The position numbers and the translations under genes are program-made. A model generated the notes under the pieces. The model was given only the letters and a program-made list of their open reading frames with translations. It was not told where the DNA came from and searched no databases. Shown here piece by piece: positions 1-49,714 of a DNA stretch of 64,000 nt. Origin of the DNA: an uncultured Bacilli bacterium (GTDB taxonomy: Bacteria; Bacillota_I; Bacilli_A; RF39; UBA660); contig CANRJW010000002.1 in assembly GCA_947631035.1 (NCBI GenBank), positions 3,233-67,232 of the forward strand. The letters are read 5' to 3'. How positions within the stretch are numbered: position 1 is the stretch's first letter; each line of letters opens with the position of its first letter.

Positions 1-248
1 GTAAACTGCCAGGTAAGATCCTTAAGAAACTCAACATCAGGGTTTCTATACTGAGGATAAACCTTCTTTGTCTTTTCATCACGTACATAAACCGTTTCGA
101 TTTTGTTATACTTTTCCATATATTTTACCTCTTTTTATTTTAAAATAAGACTATATTGATAAATATTATTAAGATCAATCTTAATGTCTTTATCATCAAT
201 GTAAATATCAAAATTGATATCTCCATCTAAAAAATTTCAAAAAACTGT

Positions 249-1549: not shown

Positions 1550-2632
1550 TTAATCTCTTCCACTTTTGAAATTATAAATTGGTTTAATAATTCTCCATAT
1601 GCACACTGTAGGTTCAATTTTATCCACAATTTCTTGAGGTGGTTTATAGGCGAAAGGAGATTCATCAATCGTATTTGCACTTATAGAAGATGAATAAATA
1701 CCCTCCATGGATTTCTTATAATCCTCTAAGGAAATATTTTTCTTAGCTTCACTTCTACTCATGATTCTTCCAGCACCATGAGGTGCAGAACAATTCCAAT
1801 CTTCATTACTAAGTCCTGTACCCATAATTGCACCGTCTCTCATATTTAAAGGAATGATTACACCTTCTCCTTTATATGCAGCTACAGCACCTTTTCTAAC
1901 AATACTATCTGCAATATAATTGTGAGGACAATCAAATGCGCCTTCTGGATTTAACTTCATCATTTTAATGATAACTTCCGCAATTGCTTCTCTATTCATT
2001 TTTGCAAATTGATTACAAAGTTGACAATCAAAGAGGTAGTGGAACATGTGAGTATCTTCAAGATAACATAAGCGGTCAGGGGTTCCAGGATCAAGTTCTT
2101 TTAACTTCTTTCTTCTAAGTGCAAGATATTGATAAACCTGAGCTACCTGCTTTCCAAGATTCCTACTGCCTGTATGAATAACAAGGTATTTATAACCATT
2201 CTCATCTTGATCAACCTCAATGAAATGGTTACCTCCTCCTAAAGTACCAAGGGAGGATTGGAGTTCATCAATATGTTTAAGCTCTTTATAACAGTCAAGC
2301 TGTTTTAGGAGTTTGTTAAGTTCTTTACTACGGTCCCCAACATGTTTGCCACTGGGAATATAATTTCTAATAACGGCATCCAGCCTTGGAAGATCAATAT
2401 CAACTTTTCCAAGGTAGACGACATACATACCGCAACCAATATCGGTACCAATGGTAAAAGGGGAAATTTTATCTTTAAATTTGGCGGTAAACCCAACTAC
2501 AGAATCCTTTCCTGCATGGACATCGGGCATGATCCTGATATGGTCAAACAATCCAGATTTTCTCATTTCATGTAGTTGAGACATAGTAGCTGGATCTATA
2601 TTGTCAGTAAATATCTTGAGATCCTCATTCAT
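1550..2632 (-). CDS. rtcB: RtcB-family RNA ligase (3'-phosphate/5'-OH RNA-splicing ligase)
   Basis: 360 aa with the RtcB signature motifs PDVHAG and GGGNHF plus a metal-binding His pattern. Placement next to the tRNA-repair genes fits. Confidence 0.85.
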   Translation of the reverse strand: MNEDLKIFTDNIDPATMSQLHEMRKSGLFDHIRIMPDVHAGKDSVVGFTAKFKDKISPFTIGTDIGCGMYVVYLGKVDIDLPRLDAVIRNYIPSGKHVGDRSKELNKLLKQLDCYKELKHIDELQSSLGTLGGGNHFIEVDQDENGYKYLVIHTGSRNLGKQVAQVYQYLALRRKKLKELDPGTPDRLCYLEDTHMFHYLFDCQLCNQFAKMNREAIAEVIIKMMKLNPEGAFDCPHNYIADSIVRKGAVAAYKGEGVIIPLNMRDGAIMGTGLSNEDWNCSAPHGAGRIMSRSEAKKNISLEDYKKSMEGIYSSSISANTIDESPFAYKPPQEIVDKIEPTVCIWRIIKPIYNFKSGRD

Positions 2633-3464
2633 ATCTCTTCTTCATAGCCTCATATGTATTTTTCATGAGCATTGCAACCGTCATTGGTCCTACACCTCCA
2701 GGTACGGGAGTGATAAAAGAACATCTAGGTGCAACATTTTCAAAATCAACATCACCGCAAAGCTTGTTATTCTCATCTCTATTGATGCCAACATCAACAA
2801 CTACTGCACCTTCTTTTATCATGTCAGCAGTAATAAATTTGGGCTTGCCAATTGCGACAATGAGAATATCTGCCTGTAGGCACTCTTCTTTTAGGTTTTT
2901 AGTCTTAGAGTGACATATAGTTACAGTGGCATTTCTATTAAGCATAAGAGCGGCCATGGGCTTTCCTACAATATTAGAACGACCTACAATAACTACTTTT
3001 TTACCTTCAATCTCAATATTATATTCATCAAGCAGTCTCATAATACCCGCAGGCGTACACGCCACAGTACATTCCTTACCTGCAAAGAGTCTACCCATGT
3101 TGATATCCGTAAATCCATCAACATCTTTTTCTGGATCAATTGAATTGAGGACTTTATTACTATCAAGATATGCGGGAAGAGGAAGCTGTACTAAGATACC
3201 ATCTACCGTCTCATCGTAGTTCATATTCTCAATAGAGCTCTCAAGACTTTCTTGAGTGCATGTTGTTAGGTAAGCATCCTCAACTTCGATACCTACCTCT
3301 TGACTGGCTTTTGTTTTATTCCTGACATAAGTAGCAGATGCAGAGTTATCGCCCACCCTAAAAATTACAAGGCGGGGTGAGCGCCAAAAACCGTTTTCCT
3401 GAATAGCCTGTTTGGCTTCGTTTCTGACTTTTTGAGCAACTGCCCTCCCATCAATTATTACCAT
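2625..3464 (-). CDS. folD: bifunctional methylene-THF dehydrogenase/methenyl-THF cyclohydrolase FolD
   Basis: Motifs DGILVQLPLP and GRSNIVGKPMA with a Rossmann-type GxxGxxG region. Start set at the internal Met (MVIIDGRAV). Confidence 0.85.
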   Translation of the reverse strand: MVIIDGRAVAQKVRNEAKQAIQENGFWRSPRLVIFRVGDNSASATYVRNKTKASQEVGIEVEDAYLTTCTQESLESSIENMNYDETVDGILVQLPLPAYLDSNKVLNSIDPEKDVDGFTDINMGRLFAGKECTVACTPAGIMRLLDEYNIEIEGKKVVIVGRSNIVGKPMAALMLNRNATVTICHSKTKNLKEECLQADILIVAIGKPKFITADMIKEGAVVVDVGINRDENNKLCGDVDFENVAPRCSFITPVPGGVGPMTVAMLMKNTYEAMKKRYE

Positions 3465-3804
3465 TTTTAACCTCTGCATCCAGTAGTGTTGCAAGATAGT
3501 TTTCTTCTACTTCTCGCATTTTTTGTTCTGATAAGACAGTATCCCCATAAAGAGCTTCCTGAAACTCATCTACTTGCTTAATCTCTTCTTCGGTCAGCTC
3601 CGTATCGGTGACGATTTCGCAGAACGCATCAAACTCGCAGATATCCACAGCTTGGCAAACCGTGAAAAGCATTCTCTTGCCGCGAGACCGTGCAAACTCT
3701 GCCGCTTCCTTCTTCCGCTGCTCGAAGTTCTCCAGATTGAGATCGGAATAGTCCCCGCTCGAAATCCCGTTGCGGTACAGCTTGATAAGAATTGTCCCTT
3801 CCAT
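3451..3804 (-). CDS. hypothetical acidic protein in a locally GC-rich segment
   Basis: 117 aa ORF; local GC about 50% versus about 35% for the window. Confidence 0.45.
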   Translation of the reverse strand: MEGTILIKLYRNGISSGDYSDLNLENFEQRKKEAAEFARSRGKRMLFTVCQAVDICEFDAFCEIVTDTELTEEEIKQVDEFQEALYGDTVLSEQKMREVEENYLATLLDAEVKNGNN

Positions 3805-3986
3805 ACCCTTCTCCTTTGAATTTCTAAATCAATAAATGGGAATGAGCAAGCCGATCGGTTCAGCCTATCGTTAAATGCAAAGTCCTTGCCATATGGCAAG
3901 GACCTGCAAAGTCCGTCGTATTGCGACGAGGTGCGCTGTCCGTACAAAATCTGTCGTTTTGACAGGTGTGTCGGACTATTTCTATC

Positions 3987-4367
3987 CTATTTCTTATCCA
4001 AAATGAACGAAATTCCAATCCCATAAGTGTCTGCGAATGTTTCAACAAACGCAATCATGGCTTCCCTCGATAGCGAACAAAATTTGAATTTATATATTAT
4101 GTCTTTAATTCTTTTGTCGCTGGGATATTGAAATTCTTTATCGGGGAAAATTCCTCTGTATAATTCTTCTATTAAATTCATTATTAAGAAGAAAGAGAAC
4201 ATCTCATTGGGGCAATTGTATATCACTGATTCTGGATTTACAACCATAAAAGGTTTTAAGGTGTTAATCCAAAAACACTCTATGGCAAGTGCTTTATATT
4301 CACATATTCCTTCTAAATTATGGAAAACATAATGATACAGCGCACGTTTGTGGCACCGCCTAATCAC
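3987..4367 (-). CDS. hypothetical protein
   Basis: 126 aa ORF. Confidence 0.4.
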   Translation of the reverse strand: MIRRCHKRALYHYVFHNLEGICEYKALAIECFWINTLKPFMVVNPESVIYNCPNEMFSFFLIMNLIEELYRGIFPDKEFQYPSDKRIKDIIYKFKFCSLSREAMIAFVETFADTYGIGISFILDKK

Positions 4368-4368
4368 C

Positions 4369-4554
4369 TCATAAAGATTTTTTTTTGTTTATGAAGTAAT
4401 CTTGATTTTCTTCTAATGCGGGATCGTTTAATGCCACAAAGTTTTCCCAATGCGACTTGATGGTCTTATATGCCTCATCTTCCTCCTCTACGGGTGGGCT
4501 AGCATAAACCTTGTAACCTTCATTTTTGAAGTTTTCGCCGTTAAAACTAAACAT
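4369..4554 (-). CDS. hypothetical small protein
   Basis: 61 aa ORF abutting its neighbours. Confidence 0.3.
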   Translation of the reverse strand: MFSFNGENFKNEGYKVYASPPVEEEDEAYKTIKSHWENFVALNDPALEENQDYFINKKKSL

Positions 4555-4765
4555 CCATATCTCCGAAATTTATTTTACGCTTTTGTGCTTTAGAACGTTG
4601 AATACCCCTTGAAATTATCTGTTGCACATCCACAGCAGGGCGAATTGGACTATTCACTGGTTGCGACCTTATTGCTTCCTCGCGGAATTTCAATATGTCT
4701 AATCTTGACAAGTCGCTTACAATTATTTTTTTTATACCATATCTTCTATCTCTATACATTTTCAT
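4547..4765 (-). CDS. hypothetical small basic protein
   Basis: 72 aa ORF. Confidence 0.3.
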   Translation of the reverse strand: MKMYRDRRYGIKKIIVSDLSRLDILKFREEAIRSQPVNSPIRPAVDVQQIISRGIQRSKAQKRKINFGDMDV

Positions 4766-5064
4766 ACATCCTTTGCCGCATGAGCAATCTTGTACATATA
4801 TTTACTGGTCGTGCCTTTTGTCTTTTTACTTTTTTCAAATCTCACGGTCAATATTAAGACTCGAACCAGTTCAACTAATATTGTGACAATGGTGACACAA
4901 TAAGATCCAGCACTGACATAGGCAAATACATTTATAGGATATTCTCCATTCGCTGCCGTTGCCCCTAACCCTATCGCACTACTCACCATCGAAACAGCTA
5001 AGGCTAACAAAATAACTGCATTCTCAATTATCACCCATCTGCTCTTTTGCCGACACTTCCTCAC
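4762..5064 (-). CDS. small membrane protein (two TM segments)
   Basis: Hydrophobic stretches VIIENAVILLALAVSMVSSAIGL and CVTIVTILVELVRVLIL. Confidence 0.4.
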   Translation of the reverse strand: MRKCRQKSRWVIIENAVILLALAVSMVSSAIGLGATAANGEYPINVFAYVSAGSYCVTIVTILVELVRVLILTVRFEKSKKTKGTTSKYMYKIAHAAKDV

Positions 5065-5080
5065 TATTTATTTTTTTTTT

Positions 5081-5548
5081 TTAATTATCTTCTATTTCTA
5101 CACCATAATTAGATGCAATAACTCTTATTACGGATAGTGCTCTATTTAAGCCCATTACCATTCCATCCAGCCCTCGTGAGATAGCTGTAAAGGAAGATTT
5201 TGGAAAGGGTGCTATTTCATCTCTTTCTTTTTTAATTAAGGACAGCGCTTTTGTAAGCACTTCTTTCAGTGTTTCTTTACAGGTGTCATCTGCCTTATGG
5301 TATCCATGTTCCTGCAAAATATCTACAACTGAGAATATTTGACTTACAAAGAAGGGATAAAGCTCACCGGTATCAGGATCTTTATGGTTTCCTTTATGTA
5401 AGCCTTCAAGTACAAGGTCTCTCATCTCTTCTGTTTCTTTCTTTTTTGCGTAGTACCCTGCCATGTCCATTTTATTTCTCCTCGCTTCTAATAGCTCTTG
5501 TATATGAGGATAACCAAGGACATTCACCCTTAACTTCCTCTTCATCAC
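5081..5548 (-). CDS. hypothetical protein
   Basis: 155 aa ORF. Confidence 0.45.
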   Translation of the reverse strand: MMKRKLRVNVLGYPHIQELLEARRNKMDMAGYYAKKKETEEMRDLVLEGLHKGNHKDPDTGELYPFFVSQIFSVVDILQEHGYHKADDTCKETLKEVLTKALSLIKKERDEIAPFPKSSFTAISRGLDGMVMGLNRALSVIRVIASNYGVEIEDN

Positions 5549-5798
5549 AGTTAAGAATTCCTCTCAAAACCATTGTAGTTGCTCTGAGAATGTTAATGTT
5601 ATTTTCATGTGTATTACTGGTTTGAATAAGCCAGTTGTAAACCGGACTATTTGAAACATAGCCTACATTTTCAAAAGCGTCCCTTATAATTTGAGGACAC
5701 TCTTTTTCAAGGTTTCTTAAAACTTCAATAACTGTTTTGAACCCTTCGCACTCTTTAGCTGAAAACTTCACCACATATTTCTCTTTTTCTTTATCCAT
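5472..5798 (-). CDS. hypothetical protein
   Basis: 108 aa ORF; the true start may be internal. Confidence 0.4.
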   Translation of the reverse strand: MDKEKEKYVVKFSAKECEGFKTVIEVLRNLEKECPQIIRDAFENVGYVSNSPVYNWLIQTSNTHENNINILRATTMVLRGILNCDEEEVKGECPWLSSYTRAIRSEEK

Positions 5799-5800
5799 TT

Positions 5801-5980
5801 TTATTTATCCTCATAAAGTAATGGTTTTCCGTCCCGATCCACCATAACACATATGCTGGCGTGGCCTGCATATGTGTGCAATAAATACATGACTTTTGTA
5901 TCTCTGTCATAATATGCCATCATCGATTCATTAACTCGTCCCAGGGGCACAGGTCCACCATTGTATATCTGTGGTTTCAT
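5801..5980 (-). CDS. small hypothetical protein (59 aa)
   Basis: Hand-translated minus-strand ORF, below the ORF-track size threshold. Confidence 0.3.
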   Translation of the reverse strand: MKPQIYNGGPVPLGRVNESMMAYYDRDTKVMYLLHTYAGHASICVMVDRDGKPLLYEDK

Positions 5981-6147
5981 TTTACTTCTACCTCATACTT
6001 CTTGGCTACGTAGTTAATGATTTCATCTACATATTCTCTCAGTTTTTGGCATTCCCAGTCATTGCAATACTCATTGTAAACCGCTACTACAAGCATCGCG
6101 TTTTTAACATCATGCAGTACATTTTCTACTATTTTCTTCTCGTCCAT
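5977..6147 (-). CDS. small hypothetical protein (about 56 aa)
   Basis: Hand-translated minus-strand ORF; its stop and the downstream start overlap as ATGA. Confidence 0.3.
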   Translation of the reverse strand: MDEKKIVENVLHDVKNAMLVVAVYNEYCNDWECQKLREYVDEIINYVAKKYEVEVK

Positions 6148-6155
6148 ACATCACC

Positions 6156-6650
6156 TCAATCCAGATTTTCTTTACACCAAACTTCAATATTGTGCTTAAA
6201 TTTTTCTTCAATCTCTTCTTCATTGAAAGAACCAAAGAAGGTGTTAAGAAGAGTTCTGTAACAGCACTTATTAGGACAAAATTTAGGATTATCAAAAACA
6301 GGACTATCGTCACCGTTAAGAATCAGCATCAAAGCTGCTGCTACTCCTGCACTTCTGCTGATGCCAGCACCACACTGAACAATAATCTGATCTGCTTTGT
6401 CGAGGTTATCGTTAACAAATTTGATAATTCTCTCAGCATCTCTTCTAGTCATGTGGTTGAATTCATCAGATTCCACGTCATCGAATCTGAGAAAAAGAAT
6501 ACCAACGATGTTAGGATTACCCCTATTGAAGGTATTAGCAGACTCTTCAAGTGCAGCTATTGAGATTATGATTGTCCTCTCCTGGAAGTTCGTAAAGCTG
6601 AAATCACTTGCCTCTTTCCTGGACATTATTTTAATTCTCTTAGTATTCAT
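6156..6650 (-). CDS. Cys-based protein phosphatase (PTP/dual-specificity-like)
   Basis: VQCGAGISRSAG matches the CX5R(S) phosphatase P-loop (HCxAGxxRS). Confidence 0.5.
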   Translation of the reverse strand: MNTKRIKIMSRKEASDFSFTNFQERTIIISIAALEESANTFNRGNPNIVGILFLRFDDVESDEFNHMTRRDAERIIKFVNDNLDKADQIIVQCGAGISRSAGVAAALMLILNGDDSPVFDNPKFCPNKCCYRTLLNTFFGSFNEEEIEEKFKHNIEVWCKENLD

Positions 6651-7008
6651 CTTTAAGCCTTGTCGCATTTTTCATATGTTCAACAGTGTATTTGATCTCT
6701 GCCCATCTTGAACCAAACAGTGGTTCTCCCTTTTCATTTCTCACTTGCAGGTGCTCTCTATCCTGTTTCAAGTTTTCAATTGCACTAAGCAGATCAATCA
6801 TGTTAAGTTTAAGAGGAACAGGAACAGTTTCAGTACCCCAAACCTGCATATTATCATCCATCCAAACATGCCAAGTCTCAGTATGATTAGATCTATCAAT
6901 ATTTAGGATTACATGGTTATCTCCTGAGAGATAAAGATACTTATAAAGAATCGAAATATCATCAAACTTGCAAAGATTGTCAATAAATGTTTCAAATTTC
7001 ATATCCAT
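6640..7008 (-). CDS. hypothetical protein
   Basis: 122 aa ORF. Confidence 0.4.
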   Translation of the reverse strand: MDMKFETFIDNLCKFDDISILYKYLYLSGDNHVILNIDRSNHTETWHVWMDDNMQVWGTETVPVPLKLNMIDLLSAIENLKQDREHLQVRNEKGEPLFGSRWAEIKYTVEHMKNATRLKDEY

Positions 7009-7298
7009 TATTCCTCAATGATATTTCCTACAAGAGCATCTACTCTAAAGCACTTGCTTTCATCACAATGTCTTACAAATGTAATTTTATCAGGATAGTT
7101 TTTGTTAAAATATACATCTAGATCATTCATCCAAGCAAGCTGTTGAATAACCCGCTCAAGAAGATCCTTAAGTTTCATATGGTAATTATAAGTCTCTGCT
7201 TTATAGTAATGTCTAAGAAAGGCCTTGCAGAGGTTAATTAATTCTTCCCTGTCGCCGCTGTCCGGAATAAGCTCTTTGAAAAGTTCTGTCTTAGTCAT
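7008..7298 (-). CDS. hypothetical protein
   Basis: Start set at the internal Met; a promoter module lies directly upstream at 7322-7380. Confidence 0.4.
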   Translation of the reverse strand: MTKTELFKELIPDSGDREELINLCKAFLRHYYKAETYNYHMKLKDLLERVIQQLAWMNDLDVYFNKNYPDKITFVRHCDESKCFRVDALVGNIIEE

Positions 7299-7321
7299 AA
7301 TATATACCCCACATCTATTTT

Positions 7322-7380
7322 CTTCATATATAATTATATAGTAAGTAAAAAGAAAGATCAACTAAAAACATAGTTGATCT
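7322..7380 (-). promoter_or_regulatory. terminator-promoter module, full form
   Basis: Minus-strand reading AAGATCAACTA-tgttt-TAGTTGATCTT (hairpin), then TCTTTCTTTTT, with TTGATC-N17-TATAAT formed by the second arm and the downstream TATATAAT. Confidence 0.55.
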
Positions 7381-7424
7381 TAACAAATTTGTAAGATAAC
7401 TGACAAGTATTTGCGAAAGAGGTG

Positions 7425-8201
7425 TTAATTAATTGTAAAGCAGTAAATTATACTGTTTTGACTGTTTGCGGAATCAATGCTAGTAGCACCATTAGTAGCT
7501 AAAGCGCACCAGCTTGAAGCCGATGATGAAGATCTATTTCTTAACCACCTAATATGATTGCTAGATAGCTCAGGGGTCGCTGTAGTTGGGGTGGTCCTGC
7601 CCATCGATGTCAGCAACTGTCTATAATATTCAAACCGAGTTGAATTAGTTTTAACCATACCCGAAACTGATACATTGCCCCAGATTTCTTCCACTGAAGG
7701 TACCCAAAGAGTGCTGCTACTGCTAGCAGTAGCGGTATCTGAAGACTTGCTTATCGGGGTAATCATATCCTTGAGATAATTAGGAAATAGTAACCTAAGG
7801 ATGGTGTTGTGTAAAACATCATACACAACTGTTTTAGCCCAATCTGTAGTTGAAGAAATTAACATGCTAGAACTATGAGCCCAAAAAGAGGTTTGCCATG
7901 TGGAGCCTGTATAATCAGCATCGACGCAAAGTACAGGATGAATACCTGCTTCCTTCAATTCTATAAAAGCACGATCTCCAGCTCTTACAGCTACTGTCTT
8001 GTTCTTTACATTTTCCCAGTAGGCTTGAATATTAAAACTTATAGAGTGTATGGAATCTACTGCATTTATGGCTGCGTTGTTGGTATTCCCTATATATAGG
8101 TTATTATTTTCCATATCATAGTAGGGTTGACCAGTTAAGAGAACTTGATTACTGCTGAGACCGTTTCCTCTTAGAAGTTGTATTGATTTATTATTAGCCA
8201 T
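7425..8201 (-). CDS. tail-fibre/receptor-binding-like protein, paralog family member 1
   Basis: Conserved N-terminus MANNKSIQLLRG...QPYYDMENNNLYIG is shared with 24063..25001 and 37868..38653, and the C-terminus is divergent. The TTTGCTAAATT motif lies upstream. Confidence 0.5.
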   Translation of the reverse strand: MANNKSIQLLRGNGLSSNQVLLTGQPYYDMENNNLYIGNTNNAAINAVDSIHSISFNIQAYWENVKNKTVAVRAGDRAFIELKEAGIHPVLCVDADYTGSTWQTSFWAHSSSMLISSTTDWAKTVVYDVLHNTILRLLFPNYLKDMITPISKSSDTATASSSSTLWVPSVEEIWGNVSVSGMVKTNSTRFEYYRQLLTSMGRTTPTTATPELSSNHIRWLRNRSSSSASSWCALATNGATSIDSANSQNSIIYCFTIN

Positions 8202-8255
8202 TAAAATCTCCTCGTACGAGAAATCTTTATAAGTACGTATAATTTAGCAAATTAT

Positions 8256-9392
8256 TTAGTCTTTCAAATTTAGAACCTGCATTTTGTAGTTTCTACTGCA
8301 TCTAAGAAACCATTCACGTACATATGCATCAAGATCACACTCAGGACGATCATTGTACCATCTAAAAAGTAAAGCACTGATATCTTTATGATTATTCATT
8401 ACGTAAAGTGCAAAGTCCTTTTTAGTTTCATACGGGCCATGGGCTTCCGTATCCTCAATAGCGCTAACACTTTCTTGGATAAAATAATCAAGTAAGCATG
8501 TAAGCTCTGCAAAACGTTTTTGATATTCAGGAAAGTATGCTAAGAATTCATTTTGTTCATTATGTTCAATGATTTCAAGAATGCGAACCTTACTCTGTAC
8601 GCCGTTGTTTGCAAGATAATGAGCTTGCAACCATTTTGTGTTCTTAATTTTTACTCGATTCCAGTACTTATCAACTGCGACAAATCCTTCTTCATCCCAA
8701 TCCATTTCTTCCAGCGCTTTCTTACACTCATCAAGATTAGAAAGATTGTAGCTGCAAGGGCGCCAAACAGGGAGATCTTTTATATCAGGAAATTGTTCTT
8801 CAAAGGTATTAACATCCCTCATGCCGATAAGATAGACACGAGCAGTATCGTAGGGAACAACTACTCGATTATAAGGAGAAACAAGTTCAAAGGTGTAGCA
8901 CTTAGAGCAATCAAGATGAGTAAATAAACTGTCGAGAGTGGTAATATCATTCCACAAAGCTTCTTCAAACAATGCTTTAAAAGAAATGGGCTTAGAGAGT
9001 AGTGGAGAATTAACCTTAGCGTCAGTAGCATCAAGAGTACCCGAGGTGCTAATTCTCCATTTACTATGAATATTGTCCCACCATACTAAGATTTTAGAAC
9101 CATCTACCTTTTCTTGAACACTTACTGAGTCCCAGTCAATTTCAGCTGCGTATTGCTCCCCAACGTTGTAGAACTTAAAGAAGCTGAGAGCAACAGGGGT
9201 AAGGGTGTGCTTATTAACAACCAGGCCCCTGCACTCATTACAAATCTTTTGACTAAAATCACTAGCTATTTGATTGTATTTAAGAAGAACATAATCACCA
9301 TCTTCGCTTAAAGAGAGATTATAAGGAGGATTGGTAAGTATGTCCTTCCAGTTGTCCAGATTGTTTCTCATTAATTTTATCGTCTCAAGCAT
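8256..9392 (-). CDS. rnlA: ATP-dependent RNA ligase 1 (T4 RnlA-like tRNA repair ligase)
   Basis: Matches remembered T4 Rnl1 landmarks: ECRG, a nucleotidyl-transfer KVDGS motif at about residue 95, and EGFVAV..VKIK (motif V). Confidence 0.8.
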   Translation of the reverse strand: MLETIKLMRNNLDNWKDILTNPPYNLSLSEDGDYVLLKYNQIASDFSQKICNECRGLVVNKHTLTPVALSFFKFYNVGEQYAAEIDWDSVSVQEKVDGSKILVWWDNIHSKWRISTSGTLDATDAKVNSPLLSKPISFKALFEEALWNDITTLDSLFTHLDCSKCYTFELVSPYNRVVVPYDTARVYLIGMRDVNTFEEQFPDIKDLPVWRPCSYNLSNLDECKKALEEMDWDEEGFVAVDKYWNRVKIKNTKWLQAHYLANNGVQSKVRILEIIEHNEQNEFLAYFPEYQKRFAELTCLLDYFIQESVSAIEDTEAHGPYETKKDFALYVMNNHKDISALLFRWYNDRPECDLDAYVREWFLRCSRNYKMQVLNLKD

Positions 9393-10120
9393 TACTTTAC
9401 CTCTACCCCCTTATTGTTTTCGGCCCATTCTTTTATCTTTTGGCAGACCTTTGTAGATGTAATTCTACCTACCCAGCCGCCTTCCTTGCACGCTTCCCAG
9501 TCGATGCCGAGATAGCTACAGTGATTATTCAACTTCTTCTCAAAATTTTCAAACTTACCTGCAGTACCGCATCCTAACTTGTTAAAGCCATCAAAGAAAT
9601 CTCTTTTCTGATTATCGTTCAAGAAGATAACATTATCCTCCAACCTAAAGCAGCAACCCCCAGAAAATTCCGTCTTCTTTTTGCCGGGTAAATCCGTAAG
9701 ACTCGCTTTTTCTTCAAATTCCTCACCTTTGCCGTCGTGCAATTCAATTCCCTTGGCCAGTTTTTGAAGTACGTATTTAGAACCTGTAGGAATTTCAGGA
9801 ATATCATCAAAAGAATTAAAATGACTTGCAATAGTTTTAAGAATAGTCCTGTAGCTAAGATATTTACGCATTAACGACGTAAGCTTGGAAGATTGAATTA
9901 CTGTAAGATCTCCCATGCCTACAATGTGATAAAAATCCACCATTACAATAGTAGTCATACTTGCAAGCGCACTGTTTGCCCATTCTTTTAGTTCCATCAA
10001 ATCGGAAAGAACCATGCTTTCAAAATCTTTTCTGGAATGAATATGAGAAAGCCTGGTTTCACATTCTGTGTACTTATCAAAAAGAGAATTATAAATGGTA
10101 TCGAATAATTCTTTCCTCAT
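9392..10120 (-). CDS. hypothetical protein translationally coupled to the RNA ligase
   Basis: Its stop and the rnl start overlap as TAATG. Confidence 0.5.
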   Translation of the reverse strand: MRKELFDTIYNSLFDKYTECETRLSHIHSRKDFESMVLSDLMELKEWANSALASMTTIVMVDFYHIVGMGDLTVIQSSKLTSLMRKYLSYRTILKTIASHFNSFDDIPEIPTGSKYVLQKLAKGIELHDGKGEEFEEKASLTDLPGKKKTEFSGGCCFRLEDNVIFLNDNQKRDFFDGFNKLGCGTAGKFENFEKKLNNHCSYLGIDWEACKEGGWVGRITSTKVCQKIKEWAENNKGVEVK

Positions 10121-10159
10121 AGTTATTTTTACCTCACATCTCACTTTCTATACATATTA

Positions 10160-10203
10160 TATAATAAACAAAAAGAAAGATCAACTAATTTTAGTTGATC
10201 TTA
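10160..10203 (-). promoter_or_regulatory. terminator-promoter module, full form
   Basis: Same organisation (GATCAACTA / TAGTTGATC arms plus tattatataat) upstream of the 9392..10120 / rnl operon. Confidence 0.55.
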
Positions 10204-10231
10204 AAAATTATTGTCAGGTATTCTTTTCAAT

Positions 10232-12364
10232 TTATTGGATTAAAGACATAATTTTCTCCACATCATTACTGTGAATAATTGTCTGTCCATTTCCAATACC
10301 TTTTAACACCTTATCTGTTACAATTATATCTGCATCCCCCATGTTATCTACTACTTCAGTTGCCATGTAGGTAAATAGAGATTGAAGATTAAGAACGTTG
10401 GTGGATTCAATATAGGAAATTAAGAAATCGAAATCTGTGGTTCCCGCCACTGTTGCATTGCTATCTTTATTTACATTTAACCATACAAAATCATTTGCAT
10501 CAATATCAATAGCAAATAGGTAAGAGAAAGTAGTATCACCTTGAACTAAGAACGAACTCTTTACCGTTTTAGGTTCAAATACTTCTCCACTATCCACCTT
10601 TTCGCGTAACATGTAGCCTGCAGTGCACGTACAGGAATTAAAAGGAGTACCTGAATATACATTATCACAGACTACCAAATATTTAATATTTGGATACCTA
10701 CTCTTAAACTTATCGAGGCTTACATCGATGTATTCTGAACCACCCTCATAGCCGCGTGTTTGGTCTCCAGAGAAGCAAATAGCATCATTTTGATTATTGT
10801 AGAAGGTTCTCCAAGAGAACTCAATCAAGTTGCCCTTATCATCAATGCCCATAACTGAAAGATCTATGTCATTTACTTTTTCCCAATAGGTGAATAAGCG
10901 TACAGTTCTACCATCTAAGTGAACTCTACTGCCCCTAGAAAGGACACCATAACCACTGTTGCCTGCAGTTTCTTGGATAGGTACTGCTTTTAAGTTCATA
11001 CCTTCATCAATATATACTTTATTTAATCTTCCCTTGAGAAGTGTTTGTAATTTATTTTCAAGAGCAGAAAGAATTAATTGTTTATCTTTCTCAGTAATAT
11101 AGGAACGTCTTTTATTAACTTCCCATTGTTCTTCTGTATGTGTTTTAAGAAGATTTTGATGTGTGAATTTAAAATGTCTAGCATTTCTATTATCTACATT
11201 ATAGTAGCTATAGTTATAAAGTTGTTGAATAAGAGCAACAGCTGCATTTGACGTAAAGGCAGTGTCTATCACGTACTTTTTATCTTCTTCATTATTGCAA
11301 CGACTAAGAAGATAGTTCATGTGTCTGAGCACCGCCGTGGCGCCCTTCGCATGAGTTAAGATAACGCAGGCTGATTTAATATCTCCTTGAGCGATGTATT
11401 TTTCTACATAAGACATTTTTGACTTAATATCATCATTGTAGATAATAGAAACAAAATAGCTCTCAAGGTCCGTTTGGGGGTTGAAGTGAATGTGATGAAG
11501 TAGGCCCTTCCACAGCTTTCTCTTCTCAAGACACTCAATCACTTGATTATGGGTGACCCGATATTGATGGCCAGTTAGGTTTACAAGCTGTTTTTCGATC
11601 ACTCTTCTAATAACAGCAGTGATGAATTTTCTATCTCTATTTGGTAAATTTAATTTAGTAAGCTTAGGAAGTTTTGATTTATCCCTAAACATGTAAGAAC
11701 TGTCCGGTTTTTCCGCCTGTATCATTTCCTCTACTAACTTTATAATATCAGGAAGACATAAAAAAGATGTAAGTTCAAGATCACGTATATCATTGAGCAG
11801 TTTAATCGCAGTATTTTTACTTGCAATTGAGGTGGGGGCATAGGAATAATCAACAATGTATTGCTTTACTAAATCATATTGAGATTTACTTAAGGGGCGA
11901 GTTGAGGATAAAAGATCATCCACACAAGAACGAAGCTTATCATGTGCTTGTTTCTCTGTTAGAATCTCAAAATGCTTCACCTCTGTTTTCTCATCAAGCA
12001 CACCTCTTTCAATCTGCTCTTCAAAGATAGATCTTGTACCTTCACCCTCAAAATCATTAAGACCATAAGTAATGAAGTACGAATAGAGTTGGTCCAACAA
12101 TAATTGATCTTTTGTAAGCTCACGAACACTTGAGGGAAATCCAATATAGAAGGGAGCAGGTACTGAAACTGTTCCTATTCCTGTTTCAGCTATATGAAGC
12201 ATGTCAACAGTTGCAAGGTTTGCGTTCTTATCAATTACAATATTAAATAGTTTTCCGAGACCAACAAGTGCATTAAACGTATACTCAGCAGAATGTTGAG
12301 GCTCTGCGGGATCGCTTACAAAATAACCCTTGGTAAATAAATAATCTTTAAATACATCTTTCAT
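10232..12364 (-). CDS. large hypothetical protein (710 aa)
   Basis: Long intact ORF at the head of the ligase operon; no motif confidently recognised. Confidence 0.55.
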   Translation of the reverse strand: MKDVFKDYLFTKGYFVSDPAEPQHSAEYTFNALVGLGKLFNIVIDKNANLATVDMLHIAETGIGTVSVPAPFYIGFPSSVRELTKDQLLLDQLYSYFITYGLNDFEGEGTRSIFEEQIERGVLDEKTEVKHFEILTEKQAHDKLRSCVDDLLSSTRPLSKSQYDLVKQYIVDYSYAPTSIASKNTAIKLLNDIRDLELTSFLCLPDIIKLVEEMIQAEKPDSSYMFRDKSKLPKLTKLNLPNRDRKFITAVIRRVIEKQLVNLTGHQYRVTHNQVIECLEKRKLWKGLLHHIHFNPQTDLESYFVSIIYNDDIKSKMSYVEKYIAQGDIKSACVILTHAKGATAVLRHMNYLLSRCNNEEDKKYVIDTAFTSNAAVALIQQLYNYSYYNVDNRNARHFKFTHQNLLKTHTEEQWEVNKRRSYITEKDKQLILSALENKLQTLLKGRLNKVYIDEGMNLKAVPIQETAGNSGYGVLSRGSRVHLDGRTVRLFTYWEKVNDIDLSVMGIDDKGNLIEFSWRTFYNNQNDAICFSGDQTRGYEGGSEYIDVSLDKFKSRYPNIKYLVVCDNVYSGTPFNSCTCTAGYMLREKVDSGEVFEPKTVKSSFLVQGDTTFSYLFAIDIDANDFVWLNVNKDSNATVAGTTDFDFLISYIESTNVLNLQSLFTYMATEVVDNMGDADIIVTDKVLKGIGNGQTIIHSNDVEKIMSLIQ

Positions 12365-12666
12365 AATTCACCTCCATGGTGTATAAAAAAAAAGATTTTC
12401 AGGGTATTCTACGACTGAGTGGTTGCGGGATGTAACCTGCCTGATTTTAAGAAGTAAGTCATAGTAGCTGAAAATCTCTCAAATAAAAATTATTGTAGCC
12501 CTGAACCATTTTAACAGAATGATGCTTTTTAGCGAAGTAAGGACTACTAGCTGGAATATAAAAAATCAGGAAAGTTTGATAAATTATTTTGCTGCTGATC
12601 TAAATCTTCATTAACCATTTATAAAAGAAGTAAGCAACAATAGCTTGTAAATAAATTTCCTGATAT

Positions 12667-12741
12667 GGAGCTGGTGGTCAGACTTGAACTGACAACCTGC
12701 TGATTACAAATCAGCTGCACTGCCAATTGTGCTACACCAGC
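12667..12741 (-). tRNA. tRNA-Thr (anticodon TGT)
   Basis: Hand-folded cloverleaf GCTGGTG..GCTGA-TTTGTAA-TCAGC..GTCAG-TTCAAGT-CTGAC..CACCAGC-T-CCA; CCA is encoded. Confidence 0.8.
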
Positions 12742-21144: not shown

Positions 21145-21618
21145 TTATCCTTTATCCCTTTCCTTTAAGACTAAACTCTGATTTTTATAGTACTTATTCC
21201 AGGTAACTTCCACTTCAAAGAAATCTGGGGGAATAAATGTATTGGCTTCTTCTTTAGTTGGGAATTCAACTTCACCCATAATCAACCCTTCGAGAGCCCC
21301 TTTGTAGATATCTATCTCGATTTTATGCATACCGTAAGGAAGAACATATCTATCCTTCTCAATAATATTACCTACAATATTATGTTTGTTCGCTTCAAAT
21401 TCGGCTTGCGTACACTCTGTTTCTATTTCTTCCCGTTGTAGACCGTCATCCACTTGCTTTTTTATGGTATGAAAATAAATATCATCTTGTCGTCTATATC
21501 GCTCTTCCACATCGCCTACTTGCACATAGTATTGGGTAAGGTGACGTGATAATAATTTGTTCGATAAGATAATCTGCCTGACAAGATCGTTTAACAAAAA
21601 CTTGCGCTCAATTTCCAT
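21145..21618 (-). CDS. CYTH-domain protein (triphosphate tunnel metalloenzyme; CyaB/thiamine-triphosphatase-like)
   Basis: The N-terminal MEIERKFLL matches the CYTH EIExKF signature; 157 aa with acidic residues spaced along the sequence. Confidence 0.55.
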   Translation of the reverse strand: MEIERKFLLNDLVRQIILSNKLLSRHLTQYYVQVGDVEERYRRQDDIYFHTIKKQVDDGLQREEIETECTQAEFEANKHNIVGNIIEKDRYVLPYGMHKIEIDIYKGALEGLIMGEVEFPTKEEANTFIPPDFFEVEVTWNKYYKNQSLVLKERDKG

Positions 21619-34762: not shown

Positions 34763-35209
34763 TTAAAGCTTCTGTAAACAATTATCTACAAATTGGCTGA
34801 TCTTGGATTTATCAAAAGATTTACCCGTCTTTTCAAGTTCCTTGATAGTACTACCAATCAACCTACCCTTATTTGCTCCTACAGTTTCAATAAGGTGTTG
34901 AATAGTAAGTACAATTTCATCATCTGTCAATGCAGGGGGAAGATAGTTATTAAGTAGCTCAATTTTGGTTGTAAGTTCTGCATAGGTGGCATCTTCCTCT
35001 TTATAGAAGCTTTTAGTTTCTTCTAGCTCTTTAATTTCTTTTTGAATAAGGCTGATAACTACATTATCCTCCAAGGGTAGAGTAGTATACTTACCTGACT
35101 TCTCTGCATTTGTAATCTTAGCAAGCACTGATTCATAGGTACTCTTAGCCACATGGTTTTGTTCTTTTCTTGCTTGATTGAATTTATCTCTAATTTCTTC
35201 TTGAATCAT
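34763..35209 (-). CDS. GatB/YqeY-domain protein
   Basis: IRDKFNQARKEQNHVAKSTYESVLAKITNAEK follows the YqeY helical pattern (LKxAMKxxD..LRxLxxxIKxxE). Confidence 0.45.
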   Translation of the reverse strand: MIQEEIRDKFNQARKEQNHVAKSTYESVLAKITNAEKSGKYTTLPLEDNVVISLIQKEIKELEETKSFYKEEDATYAELTTKIELLNNYLPPALTDDEIVLTIQHLIETVGANKGRLIGSTIKELEKTGKSFDKSKISQFVDNCLQKL

Positions 35210-49370: not shown

Positions 49371-49714
49371 TATTTCAAGTCCTCCTTAATTGTTTTAAGA
49401 GAATTAAGGGCTGTCTTATTTTCATCAATCACATTTTGAGCAGTTCTATTACCACTTGCTTTAACTAATTTCTTATTTTGCCCTGCATAACGTTCTTGCT
49501 TAGATTTCTTAGCAGGCTTATTTAGCAGATACATAAAGTATGAGAGTGTTTCGTAGTTTAGTTTAATTGGTTCAACCATTTTTTTCATATTTTCTACGAC
49601 TTCAGGAGCTACAGAACTCTCTTTAAGTAATTTCTCAGCATCCTTAAGCTCAGCTCTCATGTCATTGTAATTTTTTGTTACTTCGTTATAATAATTAATT
49701 ACATCTCTAATCAT
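49370..49714 (-). CDS. hypothetical protein
   Basis: 114 aa ORF. Confidence 0.4.
   Translation of the reverse strand: MIRDVINYYNEVTKNYNDMRAELKDAEKLLKESSVAPEVVENMKKMVEPIKLNYETLSYFMYLLNKPAKKSKQERYAGQNKKLVKASGNRTAQNVIDENKTALNSLKTIKEDLK

What the first reader, a model, noticed from the sequence alone, without database searches (positions are those of the whole stretch)
1550..12364. Two RNA-ligation systems (RtcB and T4 Rnl1-like) with coupled unknown partners
RtcB seals 3'-P/5'-OH ends and Rnl1 seals 3'-OH/5'-P ends, both well-established tRNA anticodon-break repair activities. Here both sit near the tRNA island. The Rnl1-like gene (8256..9392) is translationally coupled (TAATG) to an unknown 250-aa protein and follows an unknown 710-aa protein; these are good candidates for new end-healing or targeting partners. 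Elsewhere in the window there is a Pnk-kinase-like P-loop protein (49707..50261), a CYTH triphosphatase (21145..21618), a GatB/YqeY-domain protein (34763..35209) and a Pol-beta NTase (25534..26556). Together this suggests an unusually complete counter-measure set against host anticodon nucleases.
Basis: partly seen in the sequence, partly recalled or inferred. Interest (0 to 1): 0.55.

Follow-up and report, generated by a model that had tools for sequence, protein, structure and literature searches.

The report
Phage RNA-repair genes plus Ro-like RNA–protein cassette
The two RNA ligases are real but ordinary for a large phage; the surprise is that the "unknown 710-aa protein" always travels with small tRNA-mimicking Y-RNA-like RNAs, tRNA genes and often RtcB, which is the genomic niche of the RNA quality-control protein Ro60, although it shows no detectable Ro60 homology.

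Summary
RtcB (1550-2632) and a T4-type Rnl1 (8256-9392) are both real and carry their catalytic motifs. A third ligase starts at the left window edge, and an RlaP nucleotidyltransferase lies at 25534-26556. Such combinations are already described for large phages.

The 250-aa ORF is really 242 aa. It overlaps the Rnl1 start (TAATG), but it is not a conserved Rnl1 partner. The pairing exists only in the closest relatives, and 29 more distant family members have no ligase within 5 kb. Its function stays unknown.

The 710-aa gene is a separate transcription unit. Homologues occur in hundreds of Lachnospiraceae genomes and in distant phages.
- RtcB lies within 10 kb on the same strand in 11 of 83 genome loci.
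- tRNA genes lie next to many homologues.
- One to four structured RNA modules (AGCUA-N7-UUACUUC) sit directly upstream in 83 of 106 loci.

The long modules contain a circularly permuted tRNA-like domain. Their best Rfam match is YrlA, the bacterial Y RNA, and covariation is strong. The window holds three short modules at 12393-12651.

No TROVE/Ro60 gene lies in any of these loci, and the 710-aa protein shows no TROVE homology. My reading is a Ro60-like RNA–protein particle built on a different protein. Binding itself is inferred, not shown.

The parts
1..131 (-). N-terminus of a third RNA ligase (PF09414 type); the gene runs off the left edge of the window
   Evidence: The PF09414 ligase of the related phage locus L147 matches window 131-3 at 81% identity (tblastn).
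1550..2632 (-). RtcB 3'-phosphate/5'-OH RNA ligase (360 aa)
   Evidence: PF01139, E 7.5e-56; phrog_1075, E 1.4e-111. Active-site motifs, including PHGAGR, align to PDB 1uc2.
6156..6668 (-). Cys-phosphatase (DSP/PTP fold, C-X5-R signature VQCGAGISRS); conserved between Rnl1 and RtcB in a related phage; candidate end-processing enzyme
   Evidence: DSPc, E 7.4e-7, below the Pfam cut-off. The alignment to DUSP22 covers the P-loop. A 75%-identical homologue in L147 lies between Rnl1 and RtcB.
6640..7008 (-). 122-aa protein of unknown function, conserved directly downstream of Rnl1 in a related phage
   Evidence: 36% identical to the 127-aa gene next to Rnl1 in L147. No Pfam family.
7333..7381 (-). 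Terminator hairpin overlapping a TTGATC-17-TATAAT promoter; end of the 242-aa/Rnl1/258-aa unit
7425..8201 (-). 258-aa paralogue of the phage's DUF6273 proteins; not a specific Rnl1 partner
   Evidence: 46% identical to 37868-38653 and 25% identical to 24063-25001, both DUF6273 proteins. In L001 this position holds a lipase gene instead.
8256..9392 (-). T4 Rnl1-type ATP-dependent RNA ligase (378 aa)
9392..10120 (-). 242-aa protein of unknown function. Its stop overlaps the Rnl1 start. Predicted as an N-terminal three-helix domain, a disordered linker and a small alpha/beta C-terminal domain.
   Evidence: No Pfam, PHROG, PDB or PADLOC match.
10156..10202 (-). Terminator hairpin overlapping a promoter, between the 710-aa gene and the 242-aa gene
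10232..12364 (-). 710-aa protein: basic helical domain (about 136-445), TerD-like beta-sandwich (about 478-640) and a small C-terminal domain. Proposed Y-RNA-binding protein.
12393..12475 (-). Y-RNA-like module 3: P1 UUUUCAG/CUGAAAA, AGCUA, P2 CUAUGAC/GUCGUAG, UUACUUC, a degenerate T-arm-like insert, then a U9 run
   Evidence: CM R1, 30 bits, E 1.6e-4. Exact motif at 12452-12469. P1 6/6 and P2 7/7 paired.
12488..12558 (-). Y-RNA-like module 2: AGCUA-GUAGUCC-UUACUUC paired with GGGCUAC; P1 weak
12574..12651 (-). Y-RNA-like module 1: AGCUA-UUGUUGC-UUACUUC paired with GCAGCAA
   Evidence: CM R1, 21.9 bits, E 0.011
12666..12741 (-). tRNA-Thr(UGU), directly upstream of the three modules; first gene of the tRNA island
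25534..26556 (-). RlaP (RNA-ligase-associated Pol-beta nucleotidyltransferase)
   Evidence: PF10127, E 1.6e-21. 95% identical to the RlaP that lies 3.3 kb from Rnl1 in L147.

Best explanation
The interval is part of a large phage's RNA-maintenance region and holds two separable things.

(1) An ordinary multi-ligase repair set. It comprises RtcB, which seals 2',3'-cyclic-phosphate or 3'-phosphate ends to 5'-OH ends; Rnl1, which seals 3'-OH to 5'-phosphate ends; a third PF09414 ligase at the window edge; a Cys-phosphatase; and, 13 kb away, RlaP. Together they would restore tRNAs cut by host anticodon nucleases. The 242-aa gene in front of Rnl1 is a lineage-specific addition of unknown function that is co-transcribed with it.

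(2) A cassette consisting of tRNA-Thr, three small structured RNA modules and the 710-aa protein. Across bacteria and phages this protein is encoded directly beside one to four RNAs. Each RNA has an outer helix P1, a conserved internal loop (AGCUA opposite RAUAUC), a helix P2 and a conserved UUACUUC. In the long versions these parts enclose a circularly permuted tRNA-like domain, in the order T-arm, closed acceptor stem, D-arm. This is the architecture of YrlA Y RNAs.

I propose that the protein binds the P1/loop/P2 platform through its basic helical domain, forming a Ro60/Y-RNA-like particle. The tRNA-like part, or in this phage the adjacent tRNA, would then engage tRNA-handling enzymes such as RtcB or damaged tRNAs. 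The TerD-like domain would take the place of Ro60's vWA domain as a metal- or ligand-binding module.

Shown: the identity of the genes, the RNA structure, the co-occurrence, and the absence of TROVE. Inferred: direct binding, and any role in repair or in counter-defence.
For: Ligases:
- Identity and catalytic motifs.
- Third ligase.
- A related phage (L147) carries RlaP, then Rnl1, a 127-aa gene, DSP, RtcB and the PF09414 ligase within 10 kb.

The 710-aa family:
- More than 600 homologues, about 45% identical over the full length, in Lachnospiraceae.
- Full-length structural relatives in other phages (BFVD TM 0.75, 0.55, 0.52).
- RtcB within 10 kb on the same strand in 11 of 83 genome loci. 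It lies next to the gene in L040, L041 (on both sides in these two), L043, L063, L084 and L091. An Rnl1-like gene lies upstream in L061.
- tRNA genes flank homologues in many genome and phage loci. None occurs in the 29 control loci of the 242-aa family.
- Distant phages: Weasels2 has tRNAs and RtcB nearby; RpAliso has a tRNA island and a CCA-adding enzyme nearby.

The RNA:
- The upstream region is conserved at nucleotide level across species.
- 172 of 183 exact motif occurrences lie within 500 nt upstream of the gene on its strand, and none lies on the other strand in 1.75 Mb.
- N7 has a perfect complement downstream in 118 of 128 modules, against 15% for shuffled N7.
- P1 pairs 6/6 in 41% of modules, against 3.5% in the control.
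- The RNAalifold consensus has 30 pairs, 24 of them with compensatory changes.
- 97.6% of cells are paired, against 76.9% after shuffling and about 40% in slid controls.
- The best Rfam family is YrlA: 48.6 bits, E 5e-10.
- The covariance model R1 finds the RNA next to the gene in nearly all genome loci (110 hits, all on the gene's strand).
- R1 also finds it in viral loci, and beside the 24-27%-identical homologues of an actinophage (68 bits) and an alphaproteobacterial phage (44 bits). It finds nothing in the control loci of the 242-aa family or of Rnl1.
- Window hits.
- True Ro60-linked phage Y RNAs score about 50 bits with R1 but lack AGCUA and UUACUUC.

Other:
- No TROVE gene in 107 loci plus the window.
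- The helical domain has a net charge of +11, while the other domains are acidic.
Against: - No experiment or structure shows that the protein binds the RNA.
- The window's own modules are short and lack the tRNA-like domain. Modules 1 and 2 have a weak P1. R1 scores in the window are modest: 30 and 22 bits.
- The RNAs nearly always lie directly 5' of the gene on the same strand, and a U-run follows module 3, so a cis-acting leader is a serious alternative.
- P2 pairing was used to select the modules aligned in A5, so the covariation of that one helix is partly circular. P1, the T-arm, the acceptor hairpin and the D-arm were not selected for.
- RtcB is adjacent in only about 10-13% of loci.
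- In this phage RtcB is 7.6 kb from the 710-aa gene.
- Some 'genome' loci are probably phage contigs binned into MAGs, which inflates the tRNA adjacency.
Confidence: 0.6

Rival explanations
1. The RNA modules are a cis-regulatory leader of the 710-aa gene. They would act through attenuation or autoregulation, possibly by sensing tRNA or the protein itself, and would not be trans-acting Y-RNA-like partners.
For: - Modules lie on the gene's strand within 500 nt of its start in 172 of 183 exact occurrences.
- In the window, module 3's outer helix is followed by U9 just before the ribosome-binding site.
- In L006 a hairpin with a U-run sits between the last module and the start codon.
- An XRE-type regulator gene often lies upstream.
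Against: - Modules also occur just downstream of the gene (L087, L104, Weasels2).
- They occur in front of an Rnl1-like gene two genes upstream of it (L061).
- One set in L130 has no downstream ORF and lies within a tRNA array.
- They share their architecture with YrlA and with the Ro60-linked phage Y RNAs, which are stand-alone RNAs.
- A terminator after the array is equally what an independent small RNA would have.
Confidence: 0.25
2. One reading: the 242-aa and 710-aa proteins are new end-healing or targeting partners of Rnl1.
For: - The 242-aa stop overlaps the Rnl1 start. The two genes are adjacent in the three closest relatives.
- The 710-aa gene lies next upstream in the window and in L001.
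- One bacterial locus (L061) has an Rnl1-like gene two genes upstream of a 710-aa homologue.
Against: - 29 more distant 242-aa family loci have no Rnl1, RtcB or tRNA within 5 kb.
- Five Rnl1 relatives at 46-70% identity have no 242-aa or 710-aa homologue nearby. Four of them carry Pnk-like AAA_33/KTI12 genes instead.
- A terminator/promoter cassette separates the 710-aa gene from the pair.
- Neither protein matches any phosphatase, kinase or phosphodiesterase family.
Confidence: 0.07
3. The 710-aa protein is a Ter-type (TerD) stress or superinfection-exclusion factor with no role in RNA biology. Its neighbourhood would reflect only where accessory genes accumulate in large phages.
For: - Weak TerD Pfam hits in 5 of 43 members.
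- NCBI names some members 'TerD family protein'.
- A BFVD relative is called 'tellurium resistant like'.
- Stand-alone TerD genes are noted in actinophages (PMC7824862).
Against: - This does not explain a covarying, YrlA-like RNA that stays beside the gene across Firmicutes, an actinophage and an alphaproteobacterial phage.
- It does not explain the repeated same-strand adjacency to RtcB in bacterial chromosomes.
- No other Ter genes (TerB, TerC, TelA, TerY) were seen in the neighbourhoods scanned.
Confidence: 0.06

Closest known systems
Ro60 (Rsr) with YrlA Y RNAs and RtcB: the rsr-yrlBA-rtcBA locus of Salmonella, and Ro-like genes with Y RNAs in actinophage tRNA islands (PMC4201824)
   Same: - A protein of about 540-710 aa is encoded directly beside one to four small RNAs.
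- The RNAs have a closing stem, an internal loop, a second stem and a permuted tRNA-like domain.
- Rfam YrlA is the best-matching family.
- Model R1 cross-detects true Ro-linked Y RNAs.
- RtcB is a recurrent neighbour in bacteria.
- In phages the gene sits in tRNA islands, as Ro does in Sparky and Phredrick.
   Different: - No TROVE homology: no Pfam hit, and hhalign probability 0.1-0.3%.
- Foldseek to Ro60 is only TM 0.20-0.26.
- The C-terminal domain is a TerD-like beta-sandwich instead of vWA.
- The conserved loop sequences AGCUA, RAUAUC and UUACUUC are absent from Ro-linked Y RNAs.
- All YrlA scores are below Rfam's gathering score.
- Many modules, including all three in the window, lack the tRNA-like domain.
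T4 Rnl1 (gp63) with Pnkp: tRNA anticodon-break repair
   Same: The Rnl1 here has the same length and the same nucleotidyltransferase motifs I, IIIa, IV and V. The alignment runs through the C-terminal domain.
   Different: - Only about 24% identity to T4-like Rnl1.
- No Pnkp-type kinase-phosphatase in the 64-kb window.
- The conserved neighbours are a Cys-phosphatase and RtcB.
Multi-ligase RNA-repair sets of jumbo phages: RtcB, Rnl1, Rnl2, RlaP, CCA-adding enzyme, Thg1 and tRNAs (Iyer et al. 2021, PMC7824862)
   Same: RtcB, Rnl1, a third ligase, RlaP and a tRNA island are all present, as described there. Relatives of this Rnl1 sit with a CCA-adding enzyme, Thg1 and Pnk-like genes.
   Different: That survey lists ROT/TROVE proteins in only a small subset of phages. 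It mentions TerD only under Ter systems, not in connection with RNA.
TerD family (tellurite-resistance, Ca2+-binding beta-sandwich)
   Same: Residues 478-640 give weak TerD hits. By eye, invariant DIDLS and SGDxTxGxxGGSEY stretches resemble the TerD metal-binding motifs (the resemblance rests on my own knowledge).
   Different: - Scores are below Pfam's cut-off.
- A 450-residue helical N-terminal part has no family.
- No other Ter genes lie nearby.

Membership tests
T4 Rnl1 (RnlA) RNA ligase | Nucleotidyltransferase motif I (KxDG, lysine adenylylation site) | tested here: met
   EKVDGS aligns with T4 TKEDGS in 2c5u.
T4 Rnl1 (RnlA) RNA ligase | Motifs IIIa, IV and V (EG..., KxK) | tested here: met
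   FELVSP aligns with FEFVAP, EGFVAV with EGYVAV, and VKIKN with FKIKS.
T4 Rnl1 (RnlA) RNA ligase | Family model above the curated threshold | tested here: met
   PF09511 scores 38.4 bits against a cut-off of 28.3. The NCBIfam equivalog TIGR02308 scores only 42 against 242, so this is family level and not an equivalog.
T4 Rnl1 (RnlA) RNA ligase | Works with a Pnkp-type end-healing enzyme encoded by the same phage | tested here: not met
   No homologue of the Pnk-like AAA_33/KTI12 genes of related loci occurs in the 64-kb window. The rest of the genome was not seen.
RtcB RNA ligase | Family model above threshold, plus the guanylylated histidine and the metal ligands | tested here: met
   PF01139 scores 190.6 bits. 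PHGAGR, DVHAG, DIGCG, GNHF and HTGSR align to PH1602.
Ro60 / TROVE protein (for the 710-aa protein) | TROVE domain detectable by sequence or profile | tested here: not met
   No TROVE hit in 43 members at E up to 0.1. hhalign of A2 against human Ro60 gives probability 0.3%, and against a 7-member Ro alignment 0.1%.
Ro60 / TROVE protein (for the 710-aa protein) | Ring-shaped HEAT-repeat fold | tested here: inconclusive
   Foldseek lists human Ro60 (9nen) at rank 16, with TM 0.20/0.26 and probability 0.44. No other Ro structure is in the top 50. No domain-wise comparison was possible.
Ro60 / TROVE protein (for the 710-aa protein) | C-terminal vWA domain | tested here: not met
   The C-terminal half is a beta-sandwich with weak TerD hits.
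Ro60 / TROVE protein (for the 710-aa protein) | Encoded next to Y RNA genes | tested here: met
YrlA (Rfam RF02553) Y RNA | Score at or above Rfam's gathering threshold (69 bits) | tested here: not met
   Scores are 48.6 (L006), 39.6 (L129) and 42.3/34.7 (L122). There is no hit in the window. A true Ro-linked phage Y RNA also scores only 36.6.
YrlA (Rfam RF02553) Y RNA | Closing stems plus a permuted tRNA-like domain (T-arm, closed acceptor, D-arm) | tested here: met
   Met for the long modules of bacterial and some phage loci. Not met for the three window modules, whose inserts are only 32-36 nt; module 3 keeps a degenerate T-arm.
YrlA (Rfam RF02553) Y RNA | Bound by the neighbouring protein; carries tRNA-type modifications | not testable with these tools
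   Needs RIP/CLIP and modification mapping.
TerD domain | Pfam PF02342 above the gathering score | tested here: not met
   20.9 bits against a cut-off of 25.3; 5 of 43 members hit at E up to 0.1.
T4 Pnk-type polynucleotide kinase (for 49707-50261) | Similarity to Pnk / AAA_33 kinases | tested here: not met
   Best hit is AAA_28, E 6.8e-8. There are weak nucleoside-monophosphate-kinase hits and no PDB match. tblastn with the Pnk-like proteins of L148-L151 finds nothing in the window.

The most novel reading that the evidence does not exclude
The 710-aa family is a previously unrecognised, non-TROVE Y-RNA-binding protein. Together with its AGCUA/UUACUUC-type Y-like RNAs it would form a second class of Ro-like particles. 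This class would be widespread in gut and rumen Lachnospiraceae and in phages of at least three bacterial phyla, and would be functionally linked to RtcB and tRNA repair or surveillance.
Probability: 0.5. Interest if true: 0.85.

Novelty: new variant of a known kind. Interest (0 to 1): 0.7.

Why it matters
Bacterial Y RNAs have so far been searched for, and interpreted, only beside Ro60 (PMC4201824). What they do is still largely open.

This work points to a Y-RNA-like family tied to a different protein. It has clear covariation and hundreds of examples in gut and rumen Firmicutes. It also occurs in phages of Firmicutes, Actinobacteria and Alphaproteobacteria. That would have three consequences:
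- The 'tRNA-mimic RNA plus large RNA-binding protein plus RtcB' arrangement would be shown to have arisen or diversified beyond TROVE proteins.
- Experimenters would gain a new and abundant system with a defined candidate binding site.
- About 700-aa 'TerD family/hypothetical' genes, and the unannotated gaps beside them in phage tRNA islands, could be annotated.

For this phage, the result relocates the likely function of the 710-aa gene from 'Rnl1 partner' to 'tRNA/Y-RNA particle'.

The two ligases themselves add nothing new.

Tried and rejected
- A megablast of 1-12500 against INPHARED phages found nothing.
- The 242-aa protein gave no answer. There was no tblastn hit in phages. There was no Pfam, PHROG, NCBIfam or PADLOC hit, and no PDB hit by sequence or profile. 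The AlphaFold model, built from only 4 sequences, was poor (pLDDT 65). Its Foldseek matches are not meaningful; the T4 MotA C-terminal domain appears only at probability below 0.2.
- Ro60 homology of the 710-aa protein was tested and rejected at sequence level.
- The profile of the 710-aa family against PDB sequences found nothing.
- Rfam at gathering thresholds found only tRNAs in the window and in seven bacterial loci.
- IMG/VR scans with the window's Rnl1 and its Cys-phosphatase found no close relatives. tblastn of the phosphatase against phages gave two uninformative hits.
- Apart from RtcB, an XRE regulator and tRNAs, the bacterial neighbours are unrelated housekeeping genes.
- R1 hits at 16113-16300 and 16355-16479 in the window lie over adjacent true tRNA genes, which mimic the permuted order. 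I rejected them as false positives.
- The Burroughs & Aravind 2016 RNA-repair survey could not be read.

Full report
**What is at the coordinates**

All genes in 1-39 kb lie on the minus strand, and 14 tRNA genes lie at 12666-20640.

ORF 1550-2632 is RtcB. It scores 190.6 bits on PF01139 (E 7.5e-56) and E 1.4e-111 on phrog_1075. Its alignment to P. horikoshii RtcB covers the metal-binding and guanylyl-histidine motifs, including PHGAGR.

ORF 8256-9392 is a T4-type Rnl1. It scores above the PF09511 threshold and E 6e-43 on phrog_562. Aligned to T4 Rnl1, motif I is EKVDGS, IIIa is FELVSP, IV is EGFVAV and V is VKIKN.

The upstream ORF overlaps the Rnl1 start through TAATG. Its likely start is ATG 10120, behind a GAGG ribosome-binding site, which gives 242 aa.

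- RlaP (25534-26556) and YqeY (34763-35209) are sound.
- CYTH is sub-threshold.
- The 'Pnk-like' P-loop protein is only a generic AAA_28 hit with no PDB relative.

There is no close relative among deposited phages. The best Rnl1 match, at 34% identity, is an uncultured 484-kb phage.

**Transcription units**

A repeated cassette occurs at 7356-7379, 10179-10200, 23970-23994 and 37808-37832, with variants near 1521 and 21113. It is an 11-bp hairpin (AAGATCAACTA...TAGTTGATCTT) followed by a T-run. The 3' arm of the hairpin is the -35 box of a TTGATC-17-TATAAT promoter, and a GTGAGGT ribosome-binding site lies about 30 nt further on.

Two copies bracket the 242-aa gene, Rnl1 and a 258-aa gene, which therefore form one unit. 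The 710-aa gene lies in the unit before.

The 258-aa protein is a paralogue of the phage's DUF6273 proteins, at 46% and 25% identity. In a related phage a lipase gene takes its place.

**The 242-aa protein**

A word-indexed search found only three homologues, each beside Rnl1. In one of them a 64-aa ORF is inserted between the two genes.

A profile search of 1.8 billion representative proteins found 173 family members. They are about 240 aa long and share a conserved N-terminal motif, YHIIGMGNLTxxQ...YLxYRP. Some consist of the N-terminal domain only.

In 29 IMG/VR loci of this family there is no Rnl1, RtcB, 710-aa homologue or tRNA within 5 kb. Their neighbours include an ATP-dependent DNA ligase, a GP88-family protein and integrases.

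Five Rnl1 relatives at 46-70% identity have no family member nearby (hmmsearch).

The protein matches no known family or fold. I conclude that it is a lineage-specific gene co-transcribed with Rnl1 and that its function is unknown.

**What really accompanies this Rnl1**

In L147 the Rnl1 is 70% identical, RtcB 90% and RlaP 95%. The gene order there is RlaP, about 3 kb of other genes, Rnl1, a 127-aa gene, a DSP phosphatase, a 59-aa gene, RtcB, about 1.6 kb of other genes, and a PF09414 RNA ligase.

The window keeps this order, loosened by insertions:
- Rnl1 at 8256-9392.
- The 122-aa homologue at 6640-7008.
- The Cys-phosphatase at 6156-6668, with a C-X5-R signature.
- RtcB at 1550-2632.
- The PF09414 ligase, which starts at about 119-131 and runs off the window.

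More distant relatives pair Rnl1 with Pnk-like AAA_33/KTI12 proteins, a CCA-adding enzyme, Thg1, RlaP and a DNA ligase. None of the Pnk-like proteins has a homologue in this window.

A lambda-phosphatase-like metallophosphoesterase lies at 51505-52380.

Multi-ligase sets of this kind are already described for jumbo phages (PMC7824862).

**The 710-aa protein**

It has more than 600 homologues, about 45% identical over the full length, in rumen and gut Lachnospiraceae and relatives.

Sequence matches are few:
- A partial match to an NCBIfam RING/TerD-type family (residues 314-638).
- Sub-threshold TerD hits.

A good AlphaFold model (pLDDT 81, pTM 0.83) shows four parts: an N-terminal part, a helical domain (about 137-443), a beta-sandwich (about 478-640) and a small C-terminal domain.

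No solved structure matches it. Full-length structural relatives exist in a Siphoviridae metagenome phage, in Campylobacter phages and in Lactobacillus phage LpeD.

Bacterial neighbourhoods vary, with two recurrent neighbours:
- An XRE regulator gene lies just upstream in 9 loci.
- RtcB lies on the same strand within 10 kb in 11 of 83 loci. It sits next to the gene in six of these, and on both sides in L040 and L041. L061 has an Rnl1-like gene instead.

tRNA genes also lie close. They sit within a few hundred bases of the gene in many genome loci and flank it in phage loci L129/L130, L131, L132 and L141-L143, and in L039. In LpeD a tRNA cluster lies about 4 kb upstream. The 29 control loci of the 242-aa family contain no tRNA.

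In Rhodococcus phage Weasels2 the homologue lies among tRNAs, with RtcB 3 kb downstream. In Ruegeria phage RpAliso it lies in a tRNA island, directly before a tRNA nucleotidyltransferase.

**The RNA**

The roughly 300 nt upstream of the gene are conserved at nucleotide level between species whose proteins are only about 45% identical to the window's protein.

The region holds one to four modules with the signature AGCTA-N7-TTACTT(C). Of 183 exact occurrences on the gene's strand in 1.75 Mb, 172 lie within 500 nt upstream of the gene and two lie just downstream. None lies on the opposite strand.

The pairing evidence is as follows.
- N7 varies freely, yet it has a perfect 7-nt complement downstream in 118 of 128 modules. 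Shuffled N7 achieves this in 15%.
- The six bases before AGCTA pair with six bases after a conserved RATATC. Pairing is 6/6 in 41% of modules, against 3.5% in the control.

There are two size classes. Short modules have 13-45 nt inside P2. Long modules have about 80-90 nt, in the order T-arm, a 7-bp hairpin in the acceptor position, then D-arm. This is a circularly permuted tRNA whose acceptor stem is closed.

On 31 long modules, RNAalifold predicts P1, P2, the T-arm, the acceptor hairpin and the D-arm. Of 30 pairs, 24 carry compensatory changes. 97.6% of cells are paired, against 76.9% after shuffling and about 40% when the partners are slid. P2 was a selection criterion for these modules; the other helices were not.

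Rfam's best family for these RNAs is YrlA, the bacterial Y RNA. The scores are 48.6 bits and E 5e-10 in L006, 39.6 in L129 and 42.3 in RpAliso. All are below the gathering score of 69, which explains why they go unannotated.

A covariance model built from the alignment (R1) gave these results.
- It finds the RNA beside the gene in nearly all genome loci: 110 hits, all on the gene's strand.
- It finds the RNA in the viral loci. This includes the unannotated gaps next to the 24-27%-identical homologues of Weasels2 (68 bits) and RpAliso (44 and 34 bits).
- It finds nothing in the control loci of the 242-aa family or in the Rnl1 loci L147-L151.

**In the window**

Three short modules lie between tRNA-Thr (12666-12741) and the 710-aa start (12364). 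The exact motifs are at 12628-12645, 12535-12552 and 12452-12469, and these are the only exact copies in 64 kb. Each N7 pairs 7/7 with a downstream heptamer.

R1 detects module 3 (12393-12475, 30 bits, E 1.6e-4) and module 1 (12574-12651, E 0.011). Module 3 has a perfect P1, a degenerate T-arm-like insert and a U9 tail.

None of the three has a full tRNA-like domain. A genuine tRNA sits immediately upstream.

**Comparison with Ro60**

True Ro-like genes of actinophages also lie in tRNA islands with Y RNAs beside them. R1 detects those Y RNAs at about 50 bits, so the architecture is shared. They lack AGCUA and UUACUUC, however.

The 710-aa family shows no TROVE signal:
- No Pfam hit in 43 members.
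- hhalign probability of 0.1-0.3% against Ro60 and against a Ro alignment.
- Only a weak Foldseek listing of human Ro60 (TM 0.20-0.26).
- A TerD-like domain where Ro60 has vWA.

No TROVE gene lies in any of 107 loci or in the window. The helical domain is basic (+11) and the other domains are acidic.

The papers I could search report Y RNAs only beside Ro60. None links TerD-type proteins to tRNA or RtcB.

**Interpretation**

The most economical reading is that the 710-aa protein and its RNAs form a Ro/Y-RNA-like particle. The P1/loop/P2 platform would be the protein's binding site. The tRNA-like domain, or here the neighbouring tRNA, would be the effector end. The particle would act in the same sphere as RtcB.

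The co-occurrence, the RNA structure and the lack of TROVE homology are shown. Binding and function are inferred.

The main rival is a cis-acting leader. Position and the U-runs favour it. Against it stand the cases where the RNA lies downstream of the gene or is detached from it, and the kinship with stand-alone Y RNAs.

**Limits**

- The structure of the 242-aa protein was predicted from only four sequences.
- No domain-level fold comparison of the 710-aa protein was possible.
- Some 'genome' loci are likely phage contigs binned into MAGs.
- Only 64 kb of the phage was seen.

Noticed in passing
window 2625-3494, 13486-15150, 44656-45486: The phage encodes FolD, a full-length formate-tetrahydrofolate ligase (897 bits) and thymidylate synthase. 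This is a one-carbon/folate set that is unusual for a phage. FolD and the formate-THF ligase are syntenic with the 710-aa gene in several IMG/VR phages (L134-L139, L145, L146).
   Followed up: partly
window 7333-7381, 10156-10202, 23961-23994, 37799-37832; variants near 1521-1538 and 21113-21130: A repeated cassette consists of an 11-bp terminator hairpin whose 3' arm forms the -35 box of a TTGATC-17-TATAAT promoter, followed by a GTGAGGT ribosome-binding site. It looks like a phage-specific punctuation of early or middle transcription units.
   Followed up: partly
window 7425-8201, 24063-25001, 37868-38653: Three paralogous DUF6273 proteins share an N-terminus (SIQ(L/F)LRGN...GQP(Y/F)Y...N(N/R)LY(I/V)G) that looks like the N-termini of tail-fibre proteins, yet they sit in a non-structural region. 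Each is followed by the hairpin/promoter cassette. A DUF6273 gene also precedes RtcB in L008.
   Followed up: partly
window 39957-41960 (+ strand) and 42019-43122: This is the only plus-strand block in the window. It holds a serine recombinase (Resolvase, E 2e-16) and a 463-aa ORF, with GC 0.30 and reversed skew, which suggests an inserted mobile element. The next 2 kb has GC 0.49, well above the window's mean.
   Followed up: no
L122 (Ruegeria phage RpAliso) 2895-3116: A permuted tmRNA (Rfam, 129.5 bits) lies unannotated directly upstream of the two Y-like RNAs and the 710-aa homologue. A tRNA nucleotidyltransferase follows the homologue.
   Followed up: no
L130 19399-19725; L116 2799-2930: Some AGCUA/UUACUUC modules enclose a tRNA-like sequence in the normal, non-permuted order inside P2. 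The L130 set lies in a tRNA array with no ORF downstream, so the scaffold can carry different cargo and can be detached from the protein gene.
   Followed up: partly
L040 and L041, 7936-13576: In two Lachnospiraceae/Eubacterium genomes the order is RtcB, XRE regulator, three RNA modules, 710-aa homologue, then a second and different RtcB paralogue.
   Followed up: partly
window 46123-47208, 57061-60005, 60073-62788: A Band-7/SPFH protein, an SbcC/SbcD-like nuclease pair and clamp-loader subunits show that the window is a replication/nucleic-acid-metabolism region of a large phage.
   Followed up: no
window 16113-16300: Adjacent true tRNA genes (Leu then Lys) are picked up by the Y-like RNA model. 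The T-arm of one followed by the D-arm of the next imitates the permuted order. This is a predictable false-positive class for any such search.
   Followed up: yes
L119 (Lactobacillus phage LpeD) 7408-7746: The structural homologue of the 710-aa protein in LpeD has an annotated MazF-like endoribonuclease as the next annotated gene, about 650 nt downstream. No Y-like RNA was detected there.
   Followed up: no
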